UHGV virus genome: UHGV-0103780
DNA from: a virus
Strand: one strand, 5' to 3'
DNA: 49,301 bases
In this document: positions 4,202 to 35,657 of the stretch, piece by piece
How positions within the stretch are numbered: position 1 is the first letter of the stretch
Layout: each line of letters opens with the position of its first letter
Program-made: the position numbers and the translations under genes
Notes under the pieces: model-generated
Seen by the model: the letters and a program-made list of their open reading frames with translations, nothing else
What the model was told of the DNA's origin: nothing
Database searches by the model: none

Positions 4202-7200
4202 TCAACTCTCGCGTAGTCATTCATCAACGGATCATCAATTGACAGTGGCACCGTGCGCATAACGCCCGGTTGAGGCGTGCTGACCTTTACGACAGTTCCC
4301 TGGCCTTTCGCCGAGTCTTTAGTGTGCTCTTCAATCCTGGCAAGCAATGAGGTCATCTGCGCAAACAGCCGCTTCGTTTCACCATCAAGTGAAACGGTAT
4401 TATCAGCCAACTGCATTGTCGGCTTGGCACCGGAGCCGCCAAGGTCACTAATAACCTGTCCGTCTATCTGCATACGACCGGTTGGTTGCTGCAAATCGTT
4501 GGCGGCAGTCGTCACCTGGGACGTGGAGGCTGGTTCAGGCGCATTATTTTTCCGCATCCCCGGCGAGTTGCGGAGTTTATCGAATAGTCCATCAATCCCC
4601 ATTTGTGCGCCGAGTTGGTCAAAGTAACTTGAGTTGCTGGCCACCGGACGCGCCTCTTCAACTGGCATCGGAGTATCAACATACACATTGCCAGCTGCTG
4701 TTGCGGTCCCCTTCCCTCGTGCACGTTCTTCGAGCGTTCCCTGAACGACTTCCCGACGCATACCCCGGCCATTCATGAATTTGTTGACCAGATCGTTAAC
4801 GCCAACAGCATTGCCGATTTTGTCTACCAGACCGCCTTTCTCAAACGGGCTATCACCAGGGGTAAACGCCAGACCAGTAGACTGATCGATAACGGCGTTA
4901 TCAGGCAGTGGTCCCCTCACTCCATATTGCGCCCCACCCTGTGCTCCTGCCCCAGGTGTATAGATTTCACCACCTAAATAGCGAGCACGATGAGTATTGA
5001 CCTTGATCGCGTACTCACGGTTTTCCTTCGATAAGTCACCGGTGCCTTTTTTCCACTTATTAATAGTGCCAAACCCAGCGTTATATGCAGTGATGGCCTC
5101 GTTTAAGTCTCCATTGGCTTGCTTCAGATACTTGCTCATGAGAAGAGCCGCAGCTTCTGCCGATTTCACAGGATCAAACGATTCACCTTCAGCTAAGCCA
5201 GTCTCTTCACGAGCAATGCCCGTGAACTGAAACATCCCCAGAGCACCAGTTTGGGATTTTGCGTATGGATTACCACCAGATTCAGTTGCAGCAATCGCGT
5301 AAAGAGTGCCTTCAGGAAGACCATATTTATTCTCTAGTTCAGCAAAATACGGAGCTAACTTATCGAGATTTGCCTTACCTTCAGCGCCAAGGCTTCCGAC
5401 TTTTACATCTAAGTTGCCATTATTGTAGGTATCAGCAGCTTTCTGAATGTCATTCCCAGTGCCGGTGGTATTACGCGACGATGATGACGAGCTATTTTGT
5501 CCAATAGCTGAATCAATTTTCCGCACCGCGCTATTGCCCGTTTCTACGGCATTTGCATTGATAATCTGATTGGCAGTTTCTTTAACTGTTTTATTGCTAT
5601 CTTTCGCCGTGTCCAGTGCCGCATTTATCACGCGGGTAGCAATATTAGTCTGTTTAGCATCGGATTCAGTTTTAGAATCAGATGTCTCCTGGTGGCTATT
5701 AACCGGAGCTTTTAACTCTGGAGTGATTTCTTTTGCATTAGCCTCGCCGATCGGATTGGGTATTTTTGATACAATCATTGCCGCAGGGGTATTTTTAACG
5801 GCATCAACCGCTGCATCTAATGCTTTACCGGGTAAATTTTTAACCCCATCCCAAATATTACCAGCCGCCTCTTTAATGTGTTTCCCTGGGTTCTTAATGA
5901 AGTCAATTGCACTATCAATTGCATCACTGAAAACCTGTTTCAGGTTATCGACAGTAAAGAAGTCTTTTATGGCATCCAGCTTTTCAAGCAACTTATTAGA
6001 TGTATCGCTAAACCATGCTGAAACAGCATCACCAATCTTTGCTGTGTAATCATCGAACCTGGTAGAAATGGTGTCGCCAAGGTTAGAAATATATGTTTCT
6101 AAGTTGGTAACCCCGCTATCAATGGCCTGGGCAATACTTTCCGTCGAAAATGATTGCAACATATTGCCGATATCCTCAAATCCAAGTGATTTGAGAACAT
6201 CACCAATAGCACTGCTTATACCAGATACCAGTCCCCCCAAATCAAGAACATTGGCTAACGTATAAGCGGCTTTTTGCTGGAATGATGGATCTTGTCCTGA
6301 TTTAAGCCCAAACGCTCGACGTTGCGCTTCTGTATCATTCCAACCGGTTACCGCATCATAAATACCTCCAGCCACTGTGCCGACTAGGGGAATTGCGCGT
6401 AACGCCCCTTTACCAACTGCCTTTAATCCAAGTTTACCTGCTGCCCGGGCAGCCAAATCTCCGCCTTCATGAGCGAGAGTCTTCTTGCCACCACCGCGTA
6501 GCATTCCTACAAGTTTCTTTGCCCCCAGAGCGCCAAAAGCGAGTGCTCCAGCTTTTTTCAACATGCCACGCCCCATTAACAACGACGCGACGCCACCGGC
6601 CCCCTTCCCTAACAGGCTAAATAGTTTGGACAGCAAGCCGCCCTTCTTTTTACCGGTGTTTTTGGCTATCTGATCAAGGGCGCGGAGAATCTTGTCATTG
6701 CCCTCTTTAATTTCGCTGGTCTGCTCCTGAAGTTCCTGAACCGTCCGTTTTTGGGTGTTAACCTGAACGACATCGGCACTATTTTGCGATTTACGCCTAA
6801 AAAAACCTTTTCTACGGCTGTTATCGTCATTGCCACGAATCACATCGGCAATAGACTTTCTGGCACCATTAAGCGATCCACCAACTTCTTTTGATATCCC
6901 GCCAAGCTCCTTCCCTGCTGCCCACAATGGACCAGCAACGGCATAACCTAACGCATCGACGGCACGAGTCTCTGAAGGGTTACCTATGCCTTCAGCTACT
7001 TTTGACAGTTTTTTTAATAAACCTGCTTCAGCATTTAGACGCTCATCATCCTCTTTGAGCCTGGCCTTTTCAGCACGTTCAGCACGGGCATCTTCCGCTG
7101 CGGCCTTACTCCCTGACTTTCCAATAAAACGACCACGCGCATCGCGTTGGTTTTGGCTTTTTTGCGCACCGCCTTTTTGACCGAACATTTCGCGAGCGTG

Positions 7201-29215: not shown

Positions 29216-31476
29216 AAGAGCTGTGCTATGGATCTGTTTGCAGTGGAATTGAAGCCGCGAGTATTGCCTGGGAACCGTTGGGTATGCGTCCGGTGTGGTT
29301 TGCTGAAATCGAGTCTTTTCCATCTGCCGTTCTTGCGCACCGCTGGCCCCATGTCGCCAACCTTGGCGACATGACAAAACTTGCCAAAAAAGTCCTGGCT
29401 GGGGAAATCGAATCCCCTGATGTGCTCGTCGGGGGTACGCCTTGTCAGGCATTCAGTATCGCGGGCTTACGTGGTGGGCTTGATGATGAACGCGGCGCGC
29501 TAACTTTGAAGTATGTGGAGCTTGCAAATGCAATTGACGACAAACGGTCTGAGTCCTTCCTCAAACCGACAGTTATCGTCTGGGAAAATGTCCCAGGAGT
29601 CCTGTCATCGGCAGATAACGCCTTCGGATGTTTCCTTGCCGGATTGGCTGGAGAAGATGCGCCATTTGAACCAGGTGATCGACCTGAATCAGGAAAAAGT
29701 AACGCGTTCTGGCGGTGGGATGGCAAAACCGGTTGCCATGCTCCAAAGTGGCCGCAGTGTGGTTGTATTTATGGACCGCAGCGAAAGGTGGCCTGGAGAA
29801 TCCTTGATGCCCAATACTTCGGAGTGGCACAACGACGCCGACGCGTGTTTGTTGTCGCAAGTGCTCGAACAGACCTCGATCCCGCAACGGTACTTTTTGA
29901 GTTCAAAGGCGTGCGCCGGAATATTGCGCCGAGCCGAAAAAAGAAGGAAATCGCTTCCGCCATTATTGCAAATGGCGCTGCAATCAGTGGCGAAAGCCTA
30001 AATCCATGCCTACACGCTGACATGCCACCCGGTATGAAATCGACGAAAGCCGTAAACGCTTTCAGGATGGCAGCATTTGGGGAATATATTGACGATGAAA
30101 CCGCATCGACAGTAAAGGCAAGAGATTTTAAAGATGCCACTGACCTTGCCGTTTTTAGCAGCACAGGAGCAGGTTTTTGGTCAGAAGGGCATGGTACATT
30201 GCGGGCACGTGAGCAAGAAAGCCATGAGCATCTTGTTACATTGGCTTTTCCTGAGCGTATGAGCGGTACACAACATGCTGCAACTAAGAATACTTCACCA
30301 TCTCTAATGGCTAAAAATCCAACAGCTGTTTGCTATGAAGTAAGAAACGCAGAAGTAGCTGTCCGCCGTCTTACCCCTGTCGAATGTGAAAGGCTGCAAG
30401 GTTTTCCTGATGGGCATACGTTGATCCCGACGGAAAAGCGTAAAAAAGTTAATTCAGATGAACTGGCATATCTTCGCAATCACTATCCAGATTTAAGCGA
30501 AGAAGAGGCCGCGATGCTTGCAGCTGACGGACCGCGTTACAAAGCGATCGGCAATAGTATGGCAATACCAGTAATGCGCTGGATTGGCGATCGGATTACT
30601 AAGTCCGTATGTCGGCAGAAAGAAGGAAGTGAAACAAAAGAGCGAAAAGTTAAACCAGCGGCAGAATTCGAACGGTCCATATTCAAATGGGCTGGTGGAA
30701 AATTTGGTGTTCTGGAACAAATCTTTCGCTATTTGCCAGAAGGGAAGCGCCTGATTGAACCTTTCGTTGGTGGCGGAGCTGTCTTCATGAATGCCGGATA
30801 CCAGGAAAATCTGCTAAATGATGTGAATGCTGACCTGATTAACTTTTACAAGACTCTGCAACGCGAGGCGCATTCACTTATCACTCTGGCACATCGTTTC
30901 TTCCAGGACTACAACACACAGGAAGGATACCTGGCAGTACGGAATGCGTTTAACAAACAAGTCTATGATGATTTACATCGCGCAGCGGCGTTTTTGTTCC
31001 TGAACCGACATTGTTTTAACGGATTGACGCGTTACAACCAGGCCGGTGAGTTCAATGTCGGTTATGGGAAGTATAAAACTCCGTATTTCCCATTACAGGA
31101 GATGGAAGCCTTCCTCGGTGCGGAAGGGCGGTCTGAGTTTGTATGCGGTGATTTTGCAGCGGTGATTGAAGCTGCCGGAGAAGGAGATGTCATCTTTTGC
31201 GATCCGCCGTATGAACCGCTTCCAAATACAGAGGGATTCACGAACTATTCCGGTCATGACTTTAAGTTTGAAGAGCAAAAACGCCTGGTGTCTCTGTTGA
31301 CGGATGCTCATCGTCGAGGTGCAAAGGTTCTCATTACTAACAGTGGCGCGCCAAACATCAGAGAGCTTTATCATGACAGTGGCTTCAGAGTGGAACCTCT
31401 TTTTGCCAGACGTTCTGTGTCTTGTAAGGGGGACACTCGAGGTGTAGCTCATGACGTTTTGGGTATATTGCTCTAA
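29212..31476 (+). CDS. dmt: bifunctional DNA methyltransferase: N-terminal C5-cytosine domain fused to C-terminal Dam-like N6-adenine domain, 754 aa
   Basis: C5 motifs [12 protein letters not shown] and ENVPG; adenine motifs KWAGGK and FCDPPY; size as recalled for P1 Dmt. Confidence 0.85.
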
Positions 31477-31483
31477 TAAATTT
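31467..31483 (+). promoter_or_regulatory. C1-repressor operator (ATTGCTCTAATAAATTT, perfect consensus)
   Basis: Overlaps the dmt stop codon and the -35 of TTGCTC-N17-TAATAT; extends into the palindrome CTAATAAATTTATTAG. Confidence 0.8.
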
Positions 31484-31657
31484 ATTAGTGTAATATCGCC
31501 TCAATGAATCGTGATTTATAGAGCGATTTAGCTGTTAGCCGCGACAGGCGCGGCGGTAAGCATGGCTGGGCCTAGTCCTCCCAGACAAACCACCGAGTTG
31601 CCAGGTTGACCATGCGCCTAAGTGGCAACTCCGAAGTGCGTTACGAGCTTCCAGTTT

Positions 31658-31685
31658 GCCCATCTTCGGGTGGGCGTTTTTTTTC
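31658..31685 (+). terminator. rho-independent terminator
   Basis: GCCCATC-ttcg-GGTGGGC followed by GTTTTTTTT. Confidence 0.7.
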
Positions 31686-32149
31686 AGGGTTTTCGTCATG
31701 GTTAGCGACTTTGCGGCGGTTTAGAAACTGACCATTAAAGTAAATGCAAACGATGATCTGATGATGGTAGCGGCCTAAGAAGCCAGATGCCACGGGGTAT
31801 GAGTCGTCCCCCGTCAAAAAATCGACCGCAGAGTGTCCCCGTCTGTGTATTAGGGAACGGGGAGGCACAACAGGTAAGGGCGCTGGTGTGATTAACCAGA
31901 TGAACGAGAAGGGGCCATCTGTTGGTCAGCGTCCTTTCCTGTTGCGTTTTCTTTTCAGCGTAACAGCGGTGCTTAACAGCACTTTGGGTACAGTTCCACG
32001 AATTTACGGGTATATCCCGTCATGCTGAAAGCGCTAATCACGCTGGAAGCCAGGGTTGTGCATCCCCTGTTACCGAATTGCAGCCAGGGCGCGGTGCGCC
32101 GAAAAGCATACGGAGGTGGAAGCCCTCGCCGGAGACGTACCCGGCAAGT

Positions 32150-32225
32150 GATGGTGTAGCTCAGCGGTTAGAGCGGTTGACTGTTAATCAACGGGTCGAT
32201 GGTTCAAATCCATCCACCATCGCCA
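32150..32225 (+). tRNA. tRNA-Asn (anticodon GTT)
   Basis: Manual cloverleaf: acceptor GATGGTG/CACCATC, anticodon loop CTGTTAA, T-loop TTCAAAT, encoded CCA; 76 nt. Confidence 0.85.
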
Positions 32226-32227
32226 AT

Positions 32228-32303
32228 GCCGGTTTAGCTCAGTTGGTAGAGCGCCTGCCTTGTAAGCAGGATGTCAGCGGTTCGAGTCCGTTAATCGGCA
32301 CCA
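32228..32303 (+). tRNA. tRNA-Thr (anticodon TGT)
   Basis: Manual cloverleaf: acceptor GCCGGTT/AATCGGC, anticodon loop CTTGTAA, T-loop TTCGAGT, encoded CCA; starts 2 nt after tRNA-Asn. Confidence 0.85.
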
Positions 32304-32304
32304 G

Positions 32305-33105
32305 CACAACAGGTAAGGGTATTTTGCGACGTCGGAGATCGCCGAGCTTGGCAGAGGGTTCGAATCCCTACGAAGTACCCTTACCGTTGTGATGAATGCG
32401 CAGGCTGATGCGCGAAAGACATTGCAGCTATTGCGGAAAAGAGCTGTTCGGCGGGGCAATTAAACGCCCGTGAGAGTCTGAAATAACCGCAAGCCGGAGA
32501 TCAGCACCGGTCATCACAACACAACAGGTAAGGGCATTCTCCCTTATGGGGCTTGGCTTAAATGCATCGAGTGCTCTTACCGTTGTGATGAAGTGCAGCT
32601 CTTTGAAGCAACCAGAAGATAAGCATCTGGCTTCACAACATAAACCGCAGGAACGACCAATAAACGGTAGTCCGTATGGAGAACACCCCGTTGAGGAAGA
32701 GGCCTGGCCGGAACCGTAACCGGCACTACAACGTTGAGAACACTGGCGTAACGGGGTCATATCCCAATCTACGAATAAATGTTGCGTTGCAGCGTGACAA
32801 CCAGTGTTCTCAACATTGTGGTGAATGCACAGGCTGATGTGCCGCAACTACAGTAGTGCGCGCTTTGCGGGGCTTGCTACAACCCTGTGTCGGAGTTCAG
32901 CACCGACCATCACAGTTTGATTCTCTGGCATGAGCATAACGCTGAAATAAGTCCAGTCTGGTGCGGCCCGATCACCCGCCGTTAGCTCCACGAAACGGAG
33001 CACGTAACAGGTAAGAGCATTCTCCTGTAACGGGTTCATATCCCAATCTACAGGTCCACCAGGAATGCTCTTTCCGTTGCGGTGAATGCGGCTAAGCGCA
33101 CGCGG
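32305..33105 (+). repeat. array of four related structured repeat units (long inverted arms around a tRNA T-arm-like hairpin)
   Basis: Copies at about 32305-32412, 32511-32600, 32733-32850, 33005-33105; examples CACAACAGGTAAGGGTA...GGGTTCGAATCCC...TACCCTTACCGTTGTG and a perfect 14-bp inverted repeat GTTGAGAACACTGG/CCAGTGTTCTCAAC. No convincing ORF. Confidence 0.6.
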
Positions 33106-33230
33106 GGAAATGGTTATATCTGTCCATTATTTCTCCTTATTTCCCCGTCCATGGTGGATAACCAGCCAAAGGACACCGGGAAGCACCCGGCACCGCAACC
33201 TTATTTCCCAACCAGTAATGAGGTTAATAA

Positions 33231-33656
33231 ATGCTCGGCATTCTCAAAAAGAAATTCCGCAAAGCGGCTGGCGGAGTCAAGAAGATGGAAAACCGTGATG
33301 CGGTGGAAGCGACTGTCTGGGGCGCATATTCCATTGCATACTCTGACGGCACCTGCGATGCGAAAGAAATTGCAGTGTTGGAAAAAACCATTGCAGCACT
33401 TCCTGCCTTTGCGCCGTTCTCCGGTGAAATTGCCCAGATGAGCGCCAATATTCGCGCTCAATATGAAGCCTCGCCGCGCCGAGCGAATGCCCAGGCTTTA
33501 CGTGAACTGGCTGACGTGTCTGGAACTAATGATGCGGTAGATGTTCTGTGCCTATGCATTGATATTGCTGACCAGGATGGCATTGGGGCAGAAGAGCAGG
33601 AGCAATTGAAGAAAATTGCCCAGGCTCTTCAATTGCCACTGGAACAGTATATCTGA
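33231..33656 (+). CDS. TerB-like domain protein, 141 aa (start may be the internal Met at 33285)
   Basis: Two A-x-(S/A)-DG-x5-E-x3-L-like motifs (AYSDGTCDAKEIAVL; IADQDGIGAEEQEQL) resembling the TerB fold. Confidence 0.5.
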   Translation: MLGILKKKFRKAAGGVKKMENRDAVEATVWGAYSIAYSDGTCDAKEIAVLEKTIAALPAFAPFSGEIAQMSANIRAQYEASPRRANAQALRELADVSGTNDAVDVLCLCIDIADQDGIGAEEQEQLKKIAQALQLPLEQYI

Positions 33657-33820
33657 TGGTTATAAAAGCACGTCTAATTCTGGCTTTGGTTTTTCTCGTG
33701 CTATCTGTGCTGGTGGATTTCACCAGCACAATCCTGTCGGTTTTATCCGACGGGGCGTTGGTAGCAGTAGCTGTAACATTGGTATGGCCGATATTAAAAA
33801 CAGCTTCTAAGGATCAGTGA
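33656..33820 (+). CDS. small membrane protein, 54 aa
   Basis: Manual read MVIKARLILALVFLVLSVLVDFTSTILSVLSDGALVAVAVTLVWPILKTASKDQ; start overlaps the TerB-like stop (TGATG). Confidence 0.35.
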   Translation: MVIKARLILALVFLVLSVLVDFTSTILSVLSDGALVAVAVTLVWPILKTASKDQ

Positions 33821-33927
33821 TGGGCTTCTGGGATTTTGCTGACAAGCATCCAATTGTTCTCGTTGTCATTGCTGGCATAGTTGTAGGCGGTATTGCTGGC
33901 GTCATAGAAGCACTCAGGAAACAGTAA
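33820..33927 (+). CDS. small single-TM peptide, 35 aa
   Basis: Manual read MGFWDFADKHPIVLVVIAGIVVGGIAGVIEALRKQ; start overlaps the previous stop (TGATG); ends 3 nt before tRNA-Ile. Confidence 0.35.
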   Translation: MGFWDFADKHPIVLVVIAGIVVGGIAGVIEALRKQ

Positions 33928-33930
33928 TCC

Positions 33931-34006
33931 GGCCCTTTAGCTCAGTGGTTAGAGCTGGCGACTCATAATCGCACGGTCACCGGTTCAAGTCCGGTAGGGG
34001 CCACCA
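33931..34006 (+). tRNA. tRNA with CAT anticodon, tRNA-Ile2 (lysidine) type
   Basis: Manual cloverleaf: acceptor GGCCCTT/AGGGGCC, anticodon loop CTCATAA, T-loop TTCAAGT, encoded CCA; close to E. coli tRNA-Ile2 as recalled. Confidence 0.8.
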
Positions 34007-34286
34007 TATTTGGTTGTAACACGGCGTCTGGCACATGCGTCGTTAGCGGTCTGGTGACGTTAAAAGGGGGGAACCTTGCCCCTAGCTCAGGCAACGAACC
34101 AGGTAGCCGGAATGTGCAAGCCACCGTTTGTTGTTTCTCGGGTAAAGGGATTCACCATCCTGGCGATTCGGTGTGACAGCCGGGAAGAGTCCGGCGCATT
34201 AATCCTGATTTTCTGGTGATGACTCATATCGTTAGGAGTGATTTGAGTATGCCGATTATATCTGACATTCAGCACGCCTGGGTGGA

Positions 34287-35657
34287 GTGCTAATGTCTGC
34301 ATCCCCTCTTGAATCCATGCCAAATTCCCTTAGTGCAGAACAAGCTGTACTTGGTGGCTTAATGCTTGATAACTGCCGCTGGGATGAAGTTGCAGATCGT
34401 ATAGTTGCTGATGATTTTTATACCAGTGCTCATCGTGAAATTTTCAGTGAGATGGAGAGGTTATTAAGTCATGGCAAACCGATTGATTTGATAACACTTG
34501 CTGAAGCACTTGAACAGAACGGTAAATTAGAACGCGCCGGTGGTTTTGCGTACCTTGCGGAGATGTCAAAGAACACGCCCAGCGCGGCAAATATTTGTGC
34601 TTATGCGGATATCGTTCGTGAACGCGCGGTTGTTCGTGAAATGATTTCCGTCGCAAATGAAATAGCCGAAGCTGGATATGCGCAGGATGGCAGGGGCAGC
34701 AATGAATTGCTGGATATGGCCGAGCGCCGCGTTTTTGAAATAGCTGAAAAACGACAAAAGAGCGGTAGTGGTCCAAAAGATATCGCCAGCATTCTCGATG
34801 CAACGGTATCTCGCATAGAAGAGTTGTTTCAGCGACCACATGATGGTGTAACGGGGCTTGATACGGGATTTACCGATCTCAATAAGAAGACGGCAGGGCT
34901 TCAGCCGTCCGATCTCATCATTGTCGCCGCCCGCCCATCTATGGGGAAGACCACGTTTGCGATGAATCTCGTCGAAAATGCTGCAGTTCGTAACGATAAG
35001 CCCGTATTGGTTTTTAGCCTTGAGATGCCGAGCCACCAGCTGATGATGCGCTCACTGGCTTCTCTTGCACGCGTTGATCAGACTCGTATTAGAACGGGGC
35101 AACTTAACGACGATGATTGGGCGCGGGTTTCTGGCGCAATGGGGATTCTGTTGGACAAGCAGAATATTTTTATTGATGACTCAAGCGCCCTGACACCTAC
35201 AGAGCTTCGTTCCCGCGCTCGTCGTGTTTATAAAGAAAATGGTGGTTTGAGCATGATTATGATCGACTACCTGCAACTTATGCGCGTCCCCGAGCTGCAA
35301 GATAACCGAACGCTGGAAATTGCCGAGATTTCTCGCTCACTGAAGGCGTTGGCGAAGGAATTACAAGTACCGGTGGTGGCATTGTCACAACTTAATCGAT
35401 CGCTTGAACAGCGTGCGGACAAACGACCGGTAAATTCAGATTTACGTGAATCAGGAGCAATTGAGCAGGACGCAGACCTGATTATGTTTCTGTATCGCGA
35501 CGAAGTTTATCACCCGGATAGCGAAATGAAGGGCATTGCCGAGGTAATTATCGGAAAGCAACGAAATGGCCCAATTGGCACGGTGAGATTGGCTTTTAAC
35601 GGCCAATACTCACGGTTTGATAACTATGCCGGTGCTGACTGGCAAGAGGATTATTAA
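34287..35657 (+). CDS. ban: DnaB-family replicative helicase (P1 Ban-like), 456 aa
   Basis: Walker A ARPSMGKTTFAMNL; near-colinear match to E. coli DnaB along the whole length as recalled; downstream of a C1 operator and phage tRNAs. Confidence 0.9.
   Translation: MLMSASPLESMPNSLSAEQAVLGGLMLDNCRWDEVADRIVADDFYTSAHREIFSEMERLLSHGKPIDLITLAEALEQNGKLERAGGFAYLAEMSKNTPSAANICAYADIVRERAVVREMISVANEIAEAGYAQDGRGSNELLDMAERRVFEIAEKRQKSGSGPKDIASILDATVSRIEELFQRPHDGVTGLDTGFTDLNKKTAGLQPSDLIIVAARPSMGKTTFAMNLVENAAVRNDKPVLVFSLEMPSHQLMMRSLASLARVDQTRIRTGQLNDDDWARVSGAMGILLDKQNIFIDDSSALTPTELRSRARRVYKENGGLSMIMIDYLQLMRVPELQDNRTLEIAEISRSLKALAKELQVPVVALSQLNRSLEQRADKRPVNSDLRESGAIEQDADLIMFLYRDEVYHPDSEMKGIAEVIIGKQRNGPIGTVRLAFNGQYSRFDNYAGADWQEDY

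What the first reader, a model, noticed from the sequence alone, without database searches (positions are those of the whole stretch)
33231..33927. TerB-like protein and two tiny membrane peptides coupled by TGATG overlaps, between the tRNAs
A TerB-fold-like protein is followed by 54-aa and 35-aa hydrophobic peptides, each start overlapping the previous stop, then tRNA-Ile. TerB-like domains with small membrane partners recur in stress and phage-defence contexts; alternatively these could be holin-like or exclusion peptides.
Basis: partly seen in the sequence, partly recalled or inferred. Interest (0 to 1): 0.5.

Follow-up and report, generated by a model that had tools for sequence, protein, structure and literature searches.

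The report
Phage P1 tciA-tciB-tciC gene cluster
This is the already annotated tciA-tciB-tciC cluster of a P1-type phage-plasmid: a TerB-family protein followed by two tiny membrane proteins, real and conserved, non-essential, and still without a tested function.

Summary
The window is a P1-like punavirus, 99.8% identical to phage JL22 and 99.6% to P1. The three ORFs sit base for base on P1 tciA (141 aa), tciB (54 aa) and tciC (35 aa). They are joined by two TGATG stop/start overlaps and followed 3 nt later by tRNA-Ile2(CAT). P1 has carried this annotation since 2004, so the finding is a rediscovery.

TciA is a true TerB-family protein by Pfam, by a family profile that hits Klebsiella TerB 2JXU at E 7e-23, and by its AF2 fold. 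TciB is a DUF3927 two-helix membrane hairpin, and TciC has a single transmembrane segment.

New context from this work:
- The tciA-tciB pair is a conserved, overlapping two-gene module in 93 of 94 related loci.
- It also occurs in virulent N4-like, jumbo and Pseudomonas phages.
- In lambdoid prophages it sits between antiterminator Q and the holin.
- TciC is restricted to P1, P7 and D6-type elements.

In P1 the genes lie in the C1-repressed ban operon and are non-essential. They match no PADLOC defence model. The most likely role is a lytic-phase accessory complex at the inner membrane, analogous to TerB-TerC. That mechanism is inferred, not shown. Interest is low.

The parts
33231..33656 (+). 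tciA: 141-aa cytoplasmic TerB-family protein. Its N-terminal tail (residues 1-19) is basic with net charge +7, and the six-helix body has net charge -11.
33656..33820 (+). tciB: 54-aa DUF3927 protein, predicted to be a two-helix membrane hairpin with the turn at the conserved D32-G33 and basic ends.
   Evidence: Pfam DUF3927 matches at E 7e-31. AF2 of a natural TciA-TciB fusion gives two helices in the TciB part at pLDDT 57-74. A DUF3927-like ORF overlaps the tciA stop in 93 of 94 loci.
33820..33927 (+). tciC: 35-aa single-pass membrane peptide with an FWDFADKxP head, a glycine-rich hydrophobic segment and a basic tail. An alternative GTG start lies at 33817.
   Evidence: It is identical to P1 TciC and P7 Upf69.6 and matches phrog_23152 at E 3e-27. 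There are two alleles of about 75% identity, with dN/dS about 0.6. A divergent 37-aa homologue is unannotated in D6. No Pfam family matches.
33931..34006 (+). trnI: tRNA-Ile2 with anticodon CAT, starting 3 nt after the tciC stop.
   Evidence: ARAGORN and Rfam tRNA at 64.7 bits find it. P1 annotates it as trnI, ileX-like. PGAP names it tRNA-Ile in 541 E. coli genomes.
32150..32303 (+). trnA (tRNA-Asn GTT) and trnT (tRNA-Thr TGT), upstream members of the same rightward transcription unit.
31451..31496 (+). P2ban and P1ban promoters overlapped by the bivalent C1 operator Oban (Op72, at 31467-31494). This is the only annotated rightward promoter upstream of tciABC.
   Evidence: The sequence is identical to P1 68651-68696, with the annotation taken. 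A strict sigma-70 consensus scan finds no promoter between 31300 and 34400.
31654..31676 (+). Terminator-like hairpin with a T-run at the end of P1's 'dicF-like region'. It is a possible attenuation point between Pban and the tRNA and tci genes.
33078..33197 (+). Partial STnc100-like RNA element immediately upstream of tciA, below the Rfam gathering score.
   Evidence: It scores 39.2 bits against a gathering score of 47, E 2.5e-6, covering model positions 31-147. The same partial element precedes tciA in P7 and D6, and full-length copies follow tciB in lambdoid loci.
34293..35657 (+). ban: DnaB-like replicative helicase, the downstream gene of the operon.

Best explanation
The region is the tciA-tciB-tciC cluster of a P1-type phage-plasmid.

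Shown:
- TciA is a stand-alone TerB-family protein.
- TciB is a DUF3927 two-helix hydrophobic hairpin.
- TciC is a single-pass hydrophobic peptide.
- The three reading frames are joined by one-base stop/start overlaps.
- They sit on the same strand between the C1-controlled Pban promoters and ban, interleaved with three tRNA genes.
- The genes are dispensable for plaque formation.
- TciA protein and tci transcripts are detectable during lytic growth.

Inferred:
- The three products are made together by translational coupling when C1 repression is lifted.
- They assemble at the inner membrane. TciB, plus TciC in P1-type elements, acts as a minimal membrane partner. TciA docks onto it and onto acidic lipids through its basic N-terminal tail.
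- This would be a miniature analogue of the TerB-TerC pair of ter operons.
- Its likely job is to condition the inner membrane of the infected cell against depolarising or pore-forming insults, such as colicins, superinfecting phage or premature holin firing.
- It is unlikely to resist tellurite or to defend the lysogen.

My confidence by step is about 0.98 for the identity, about 0.6 for a membrane-associated complex, and about 0.25 for the specific protective role.
For: Identity:
- The region is 99.6-99.8% identical to P1 and JL22, with coordinates matching P1 gp074-076 and trnI.

TerB membership:
- Pfam TerB is above its cut-off.
- The family profile hits 2JXU TerB at E 6.9e-23 across the full length.
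- The best fold matches are the TerB-like structures 2h5n and 2ou3.

Membrane partners:
- DUF3927 is matched at E 7e-31.
- Hydrophobicity is, and the hairpin prediction.

Functional linkage of tciA and tciB:
- The overlapping pair is kept in 93 of 94 loci.
- It is also kept in the N4-like phage Pollock, the jumbo phage Huxley, Pseudomonas phiK7B1, the lambdoid phage JLK-2012, D6 and P7.

Link to TerC:
- Vibrio phage PhiImVa-1 has TerB-TerC-TerB in place of TerB-DUF3927.
- TerB is reported as a TerC interaction partner (PMC11003894).
- TerB proteins are described as amphitropic.

Lytic-phase expression:
- Pban and Op72 are conserved upstream, with no strict consensus promoter in between.
- tciA and tciB/C were quantified by RNA-seq at 10 and 20 min of P1vir infection.
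- Two TciA peptides were found in virion preparations.
- The module is present in virulent phages.
- In lambdoid prophages it lies in the Q-dependent late region.

Non-essentiality:
- CRISPRi gave EOP 0.65, 0.99 and 1.3 for tciA, tciB and tciC, all scored non-essential.
Against: - No experiment assigns any phenotype to tciA, tciB or tciC.
- No interaction or localisation data exist.
- The AF2 fusion model gave no usable interface information.
- A terminator-like hairpin lies between Pban and the cluster, and plp and upl are transcribed in the opposite direction between them. The transcription unit is therefore inferred from annotation, not demonstrated here.
- The expression class differs between phage types: early in P1, late in lambdoid phages, and in the early or replication region in N4-like phages. 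A single timing-dependent role is therefore not obvious.
- P7 and D6 carry a TciA only about 30% identical to P1's, next to a nearly identical TciB C-terminal half. Any TciA-TciB contact is therefore not allele-specific.
Confidence: 0.4

Rival explanations
1. The cluster is a prophage-encoded defence or superinfection-exclusion module. TciABC would be expressed in the lysogen, or very early in infection, and would block incoming phages or colicins at the inner membrane. This resembles the Phi and PacB phenotypes of the IncHI2 ter cluster, or TerB-containing defence systems.
For: - The ter cluster confers resistance to phage and to pore-forming colicins.
- TerB domains occur in Shango, Bunzi and Dionysus, the last paired with a multi-TM pore-forming effector.
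- Small membrane proteins are typical exclusion factors, as in T4 Imm and Sp (own knowledge).
- Exclusion during lytic growth would be compatible with presence in virulent phages.
Against: - No PADLOC model matches at E<=1.
- None of the enzymatic partners of Shango or Bunzi is nearby.
- The genes lie behind a C1-repressed promoter.
- PHROG classifies them only by the old homology-based name.
- No exclusion phenotype is reported for these genes in the papers searched.
Confidence: 0.2
2. The cluster is a lysis-timing accessory. TciB and TciC would act as holin- or antiholin-like peptides, and TciA as a membrane-state sensor that tunes when the holin fires.
For: In 53 of 94 related loci tciA-tciB lies directly upstream of a phrog_198 holin, with a median of 221 nt from the tciA end. 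A second holin, an endolysin and a spanin follow, and a Q antiterminator lies upstream in 20 of these loci. The proteins are small and hydrophobic.
Against: - The Q-to-holin interval is a known insertion hot-spot for accessory genes and tRNAs, so adjacency is weak evidence.
- In the window, in Pollock, Huxley and phiK7B1, the module is not next to lysis genes.
- Pollock has its own holin/antiholin pair.
- No holin PHROG or Pfam family is matched.
- CRISPRi knock-down has no plating defect.
Confidence: 0.12
3. The cluster is a genuine tellurite or metal-ion resistance determinant carried as a lysogenic-conversion gene.
For: It is homologous to TerB of the ter operon, and database names say 'tellurite resistance'. 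The paired DG....E acidic motifs typical of TerB are conserved.
Against: - TerB alone is not considered sufficient, because resistance needs terC, terD and terE (view cited in PMC8421299). No other ter gene is annotated next to the cluster in P1 or JL22.
- Expression is repressed in the lysogen.
- The module occurs in virulent phages, where host metal resistance has no obvious value.
Confidence: 0.06
4. The small ORFs, tciC in particular, are not real genes. They would be chance hydrophobic frames in the spacer before the tRNA.
For: - tciC has no Pfam family.
- PGAP does not annotate it in RefSeq E. coli plasmids.
- dN/dS of about 0.6 on 13 differences is not decisive.
- tciC is absent from most tciAB loci.
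- There is no direct evidence of translation.
Against: - The frame, the 35-aa length, the stop/start overlap and the AAGGA motif are kept in two alleles of about 75% identity, and the replacements are conservative hydrophobic ones.
- D6 has a divergent homologue with the same MMxFWxxxDKxP head, a hydrophobic core and a basic tail, again overlapping the tciB stop.
- For tciB the case is settled: DUF3927 at E 7e-31 and presence in 93 of 94 loci.
Confidence: 0.05

Closest known systems
Bacteriophage P1 tciA, tciB and tciC (P1_gp074-076; Lobocka et al. 2004 annotation) and their P7 (terB, upf69.4, upf69.6) and D6 counterparts
   Same: The proteins are identical for TciA and TciC, and the DNA differs from P1 at two bases between tciA and trnI. 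Order, overlaps and neighbours match: trnA, trnT, plp and upl on the opposite strand, then tciABC, trnI, ban and dbn.
   Different: Nothing essential differs. The window follows the JL22 variant, with about 195 bp extra at the 3' end of plp relative to P1. P7 and D6 carry a TciA allele only about 30% identical.
[quoted passage not shown]
   Same: TciA is a full-length homologue of about 140-150 aa and all-helical, with paired 'ADG....E' acidic motifs. The family profile gives E 6.9e-23 to 2JXU, and the fold is TerB-like. TerB works with a membrane protein, TerC.
   Different: - No TerC, TerD, TerE, TerZ, TerA or TerF gene is annotated beside the cluster.
- The partner is a 54-aa DUF3927 hairpin, not the multi-pass TerC.
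- TciA's direct Pfam score is marginal at 28.4 bits.
- TciA has a distinctive basic MxGxFKKK N-terminus.
- The module is phage-borne and expressed in the lytic phase.
TerB-containing anti-phage systems: Shango (SngA), Bunzi (BnzA) and Dionysus (DinA, DinB, DinC)
   Same: A TerB-like protein is encoded next to membrane proteins. Dionysus pairs TerB-like DinB with a TM protein and a four-TM pore-former.
   Different: - There are no PADLOC matches.
- There are no helicase, ATPase, MAEBL or pore-forming-toxin partners.
- The partners here are 35-54-aa peptides.
- The module is encoded by phages, including virulent ones, not by defence islands.
Phage holin/antiholin pairs and small membrane superinfection-exclusion proteins (lambda S105/S107, P1 LydA/LydB, T4 Imm and Sp)
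   Same: These are also very small proteins with one or two TM segments. In lambdoid relatives the module is adjacent to the holin.
   Different: No sequence family is shared. A soluble TerB partner is always present. In the window, P1 and the N4-like and jumbo phages the module is not in the lysis cassette, and it is non-essential for plaque formation.

Membership tests
P1 tciABC cluster (Punavirus accessory genes) | Sequence identity to P1 gp074, gp075 and gp076 | tested here: met
   TciA and TciC are 100% identical at protein level. There are two mismatches in 776 nt between tciA and trnI.
P1 tciABC cluster (Punavirus accessory genes) | Synteny: Pban/Op72, tRNA-Asn, tRNA-Thr, plp and upl on the opposite strand, tciABC, tRNA-Ile, ban, dbn | tested here: met
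TerB family (Pfam PF05099, TerB-like fold) | Profile match above the curated threshold | tested here: met
   28.4 bits against a cut-off of 24.4, E 2e-6. The match is marginal but is backed by the family profile hitting 2JXU TerB at E 6.9e-23.
TerB family (Pfam PF05099, TerB-like fold) | All-helical TerB-like fold | tested here: met
TerB family (Pfam PF05099, TerB-like fold) | Conserved paired acidic 'DG....E' motifs | tested here: met
   D39-G40...E46 and D116-G117...E122 are invariant or nearly so among close and distant relatives.
ter operon (terZABCDEF) tellurite, phage and colicin resistance system | Co-occurrence with terC, terD and terE | tested here: not met
   No ter gene other than the TerB homologue is annotated around the cluster in P1 or JL22. 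I did not scan the rest of the window for ter genes.
ter operon (terZABCDEF) tellurite, phage and colicin resistance system | Confers tellurite, colicin or phage resistance | not testable with these tools
   This needs MIC and plating assays. No published test was found.
DUF3927 (Pfam PF13064) | Profile match over the full length | tested here: met
   106.4 bits, E 7e-31, residues 2-54 against profile positions 1-53 of 53. Eleven of 13 diverse downstream ORFs also match.
Known TerB-containing defence systems (Shango, Bunzi and other PADLOC models) | Match to the system's protein models and presence of its partner genes | tested here: not met
   No PADLOC hit at E<=1 for any of the three proteins. 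The neighbours are tRNAs, plp, upl and ban. Dionysus post-dates the PADLOC copy used and was compared only by architecture.
Holin or antiholin | Membership of a holin family and location in a lysis cassette with an endolysin | tested here: not met
   No holin PHROG or Pfam family is matched, and no endolysin is adjacent in the window. Adjacency to holins is seen only in lambdoid relatives. Lytic activity itself cannot be tested here.

The most novel reading that the evidence does not exclude
TerB-DUF3927, with or without a third tiny membrane peptide, could be a widespread phage 'membrane guard'. It would be a minimal TerB-TerC-like complex that phages of at least five lineages deploy during lytic growth. 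It would keep the inner membrane energised, so that the holin does not fire early and membrane-depolarising abortive-infection effectors, colicins or superinfecting phages are neutralised. In effect it would be a counter-defence and lysis-clock stabiliser rather than a host defence.
Probability: 0.15. Interest if true: 0.6.

Novelty: already known. Interest (0 to 1): 0.2.

Why it matters
As a finding it adds nothing to the P1 map, because the three genes and the TerB homology were annotated in 2004. The residual value is that nobody has shown what they do.

P1-like plasmids are common. The adjacent tRNA-Ile is found in 541 of 5,426 complete E. coli genomes, and a tciABC-like stretch in 388. 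The TerB-DUF3927 pair also turns up in virulent N4-like, jumbo and Pseudomonas phages, and at the head of the late operon of many lambdoid prophages.

A phenotype for this small module would explain a recurrent phage accessory gene pair. It might also shed light on what TerB domains do at membranes, in both ter operons and defence systems.

Tried and rejected
- NCBIfam gave no meaningful match for any of the three proteins, and PADLOC gave none.
- A PDB sequence search with the shallow profile A1 found nothing relevant. Only the broader profile A2 reached TerB 2JXU.
- The TciB word-index search returned only close relatives, so DUF3927 distribution was judged from the neighbours of TciA instead.
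- The afdb50 fold library was unavailable.
- AF2 of the natural TciA-TciB read-through fusion P0003 gave a helical hairpin for TciB at pLDDT 57-74.
- dN/dS for tciC was about 0.6 on 13 differences, too few sites to be decisive.
- Rfam did not recover DicF in P1's 'dicF-like region' at E<=0.1.
- The P1 genome paper (PMC523184) is not held. What it says is taken from GenBank notes and from the Pollock announcement.
- I found no paper linking TerB-like phage proteins to holins or lysis.
- I rejected the idea that the tRNA is tRNA-Met. PGAP and P1 annotate it as tRNA-Ile2.

Full report
**1. What is there**

The window carries three consecutive plus-strand ORFs: 33231-33656 (141 aa), 33656-33820 (54 aa) and 33820-33927 (35 aa, with an alternative GTG start at 33817). 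Both junctions read TGATG, so each stop shares one base with the next start. GAGG and AAGGA Shine-Dalgarno-like motifs precede the first and third genes. The first product is soluble, with GRAVY -0.10. The second has GRAVY 1.49 and two hydrophobic stretches. The third has GRAVY 1.03 and one stretch of about 19 aa.

A tRNA with anticodon CAT starts 3 nt after the last stop, at 33931-34006. tRNA-Asn and tRNA-Thr lie upstream at 32150-32303. ARAGORN names the CAT tRNA Met. P1's curators call it tRNA-Ile2 (ileX-like), and PGAP calls it tRNA-Ile in 541 of 5,426 complete E. coli genomes.

**2. Identity**

Megablast of 32000-35000 against phage genomes gives 99.8% identity over 100% of the query to Escherichia phage JL22, and 99.6% to P1. 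The three ORFs sit base for base on P1 tciA (gp074), tciB (gp075) and tciC (gp076), followed by trnI, ban and dbn. Between tciA and trnI the window differs from P1 at two positions in 776 nt.

[quoted passage not shown] The TerB homology is attributed to the 2004 P1 genome paper by later authors. The finding is thus a rediscovery of annotated genes.

**3. Family tests**

- TciA passes Pfam TerB narrowly, at 28.4 bits against a 24.4 cut-off.
- A full HMMER scan of 1.84 billion representatives finds only 140 related clusters. Most are stand-alone proteins of 140-150 aa at 28-41% identity.
- A profile of TciA plus these relatives hits the solved Klebsiella TerB (2JXU) at E 6.9e-23 across its whole length. 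It then hits 2ou3 and 2h5n.
- The paired 'DG....E' acidic motifs are conserved.
- The first 19 residues carry a net charge of +7 with interspersed hydrophobic residues, and the rest of the protein carries -11. I read this, by inference, as a membrane-binding tail.
- TciB is a full-length DUF3927 at E 7e-31. In an AF2 run on a natural read-through fusion, the TciB part forms two helices with a break at the conserved D32-G33, at modest confidence.
- TciC has no Pfam family, only a PHROG of unknown function.
- None of the three matches a PADLOC defence model.

**4. Are the small genes real?**

Across 94 related loci from GTDB genomes and IMG/VR with sequence downstream of tciA, 93 carry a TciB-like ORF. 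Its start overlaps the tciA stop by 1 or 4 nt in all but one locus, which overlaps by 8. Eleven of 13 diverse copies pass DUF3927.

The pair is also present in several other phages:
- The N4-like phage Pollock, where TciA is about 32% identical and the TciB-like ORF matches at E 8e-27.
- Pseudomonas phage phiK7B1.
- The jumbo Erwinia phage Huxley.
- The lambdoid phage JLK-2012.
- D6 and P7.

Three phages have the TerB-like gene without a DUF3927 partner: Vibrio phage PhiImVa-1, PMBT3 and Pseudomonas phage AF. In the Vibrio phage two TerB-like genes flank a TerC gene.

TciC is narrower. It appears in about a quarter of the loci, as two alleles of about 75% identity with conservative replacements and dN/dS about 0.6. 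D6 has an unannotated 37-aa homologue with the same MMxFWxxxDKxP head, a hydrophobic core, a basic tail and an overlap with the tciB stop. PGAP does not call tciC in RefSeq plasmids.

I conclude that tciB is certainly a gene and tciC very probably one. The conserved core is the tciA-tciB pair.

**5. Expression and dispensability**

The bivalent C1 operator Op72 and the P1ban and P2ban promoters are conserved at 31451-31496. A strict sigma-70 consensus scan finds no promoter between them and tciA, and P1's curators annotate none. A terminator-like hairpin closes the 'dicF-like region' at 31654-31676. The cluster therefore appears to belong to the C1-repressed ban operon and to be made after derepression. 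This is inference from annotation.

Published data agree with lytic-phase expression. The tciA and tciB/C transcripts were quantified at 10 and 20 min of P1vir infection. Two TciA peptides were seen in purified virion preparations. CRISPRi knock-down of each gene leaves plating efficiency at 0.65-1.3, scored non-essential.

**6. Context elsewhere**

Of the 94 loci, 26 are P1-type with ban downstream. In 53, tciA-tciB lies directly upstream of a phrog_198 holin, at a median of 221 nt from the tciA end. A second holin, an endolysin and a spanin follow, and 20 of these also have a recognisable Q antiterminator upstream. That interval is the classical moron and tRNA site of lambdoid late operons.

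Sixty-three loci have same-strand tRNA genes within the flank. Partial STnc100-like elements precede tciA in the window, P7 and D6. Full-length copies follow tciB in lambdoid loci. A recent preprint independently lists TerB (PF05099) among the conserved neighbours of the prophage sRNAs PasA and PasC, and finds STnc100 hits common in the flanks of PasA, PasC and PasD. The cassette looks like a mobile accessory unit exchanged between phage types.

**7. Mechanism**

These points are shown:
- A TerB-family protein is obligately paired, through overlapping reading frames, with a tiny membrane hairpin.
- The pair is carried by temperate and virulent phages.
- In P1 it sits in a repressor-controlled operon.
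- It is non-essential.

The following is inferred. The products form an inner-membrane-associated complex analogous to TerB-TerC. TerB is a reported TerC partner and is described as amphitropic. A phage with TerC in place of DUF3927 supports the analogy. The complex would condition the membrane of the infected cell.

The ter cluster's phenotypes concern inner-membrane insults, namely pore-forming colicins and phage. In lambdoid phages the module immediately precedes the holin. The most economical guess is therefore protection of membrane integrity or energisation during lytic growth.

Rivals are defence or exclusion in the lysogen, a lysis-timing role, true tellurite or metal resistance, and non-genes. 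Each is scored separately. None is excluded by experiment.

**8. Verdict**

Novelty is 'already known'. Interest is low at 0.2, because the genes have been annotated for two decades and nothing structurally unusual emerged.

The modest added value is the demonstration that TerB-DUF3927 is a conserved, phage-wide two-gene module whose function is still open.

Noticed in passing
window 33078-33197 (+); L099 1348-1463; L107 1022-1142; L106 2159-2331; L086 3367-3570: A partial STnc100 (RF02076) match lies just upstream of tciA in the window, P7 and D6. It scores 39-43 bits, below the gathering score of 47, and covers model positions 31-147. Full-length STnc100 copies (79-107 bits) lie just downstream of tciB in lambdoid loci. 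This may be a recombination scar showing that the tciAB cassette moved between lambdoid late regions and P1-type elements.
   Followed up: partly
L019-L098 and L003-L017 (for example L063 2501-4656 and L086 661-5089): In 53 of 94 related loci tciA-tciB sits immediately upstream of a holin-holin-endolysin-spanin cassette. Twenty of these also have a Q antiterminator upstream. This places the pair at the Stx/moron position of lambdoid late operons.
   Followed up: yes
L107 (phage D6) about 1775-1888, overlapping the tciB stop: An unannotated 37-aa ORF (MMDFWTYIDKNPGWSLLFLLVIVYGVEQVAKNLRRRK) looks like a divergent TciC homologue. PGAP likewise does not annotate tciC in RefSeq E. coli P1-like plasmids.
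   Followed up: partly
L103 (Vibrio phage PhiImVa-1) 1-1626: This N4-like Vibrio phage encodes TerB-like, TerC and TerB-like genes in a row, and lacks a DUF3927 partner. It suggests that DUF3927 and TerC are alternative membrane partners for phage TerB proteins.
   Followed up: no
window 32404-32569: About 195 bp is present here and in JL22 but absent from P1. It changes the 3' end of plp on the minus strand, giving a 139-aa ORF instead of 125 aa.
   Followed up: partly
window 31593-31694, hairpin at 31654-31676: P1's annotated 'dicF-like region' ends in a terminator-like hairpin with a T-run, between Pban and the tRNA and tci genes. Rfam DicF is not matched at E<=0.1. Read-through or antitermination may be needed to express the downstream operon.
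   Followed up: partly
L099 (P7) 1501-2206 compared with window 33231-33927: P7 and D6 carry a TciA only about 30% identical to P1's. P7's TciB C-terminal two-thirds and its TciC are identical to P1's. This implies a recombination breakpoint inside tciB and two co-circulating tciA alleles in P1-like plasmids.
   Followed up: partly
94 related loci; L101 882-1354; L102 1457-1530: tciAB is very often next to phage tRNA genes. Sixty-three of 94 loci show this, as do jumbo phage Huxley and phiK7B1. The tRNA sets differ, for example Asn/Thr, Met/Arg/Arg and Thr/Gly. The reason is unknown, and both may simply occupy accessory hot-spots.
   Followed up: partly
L100 (phage Pollock) 2559-2911: A group I intron (RF00028, 101 bits) lies about 450 nt downstream of Pollock's tciB-like gene.
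   Followed up: no
L008 about 4575-4712: One locus, from an assembly labelled Pseudomonas lundensis, has a different 45-aa hydrophobic ORF overlapping the tciB stop in place of tciC. It ends ...WRSLVYSIVVGLVIWLLLGTWIVMFVAG. The third position may therefore accept unrelated small membrane peptides.
   Followed up: no
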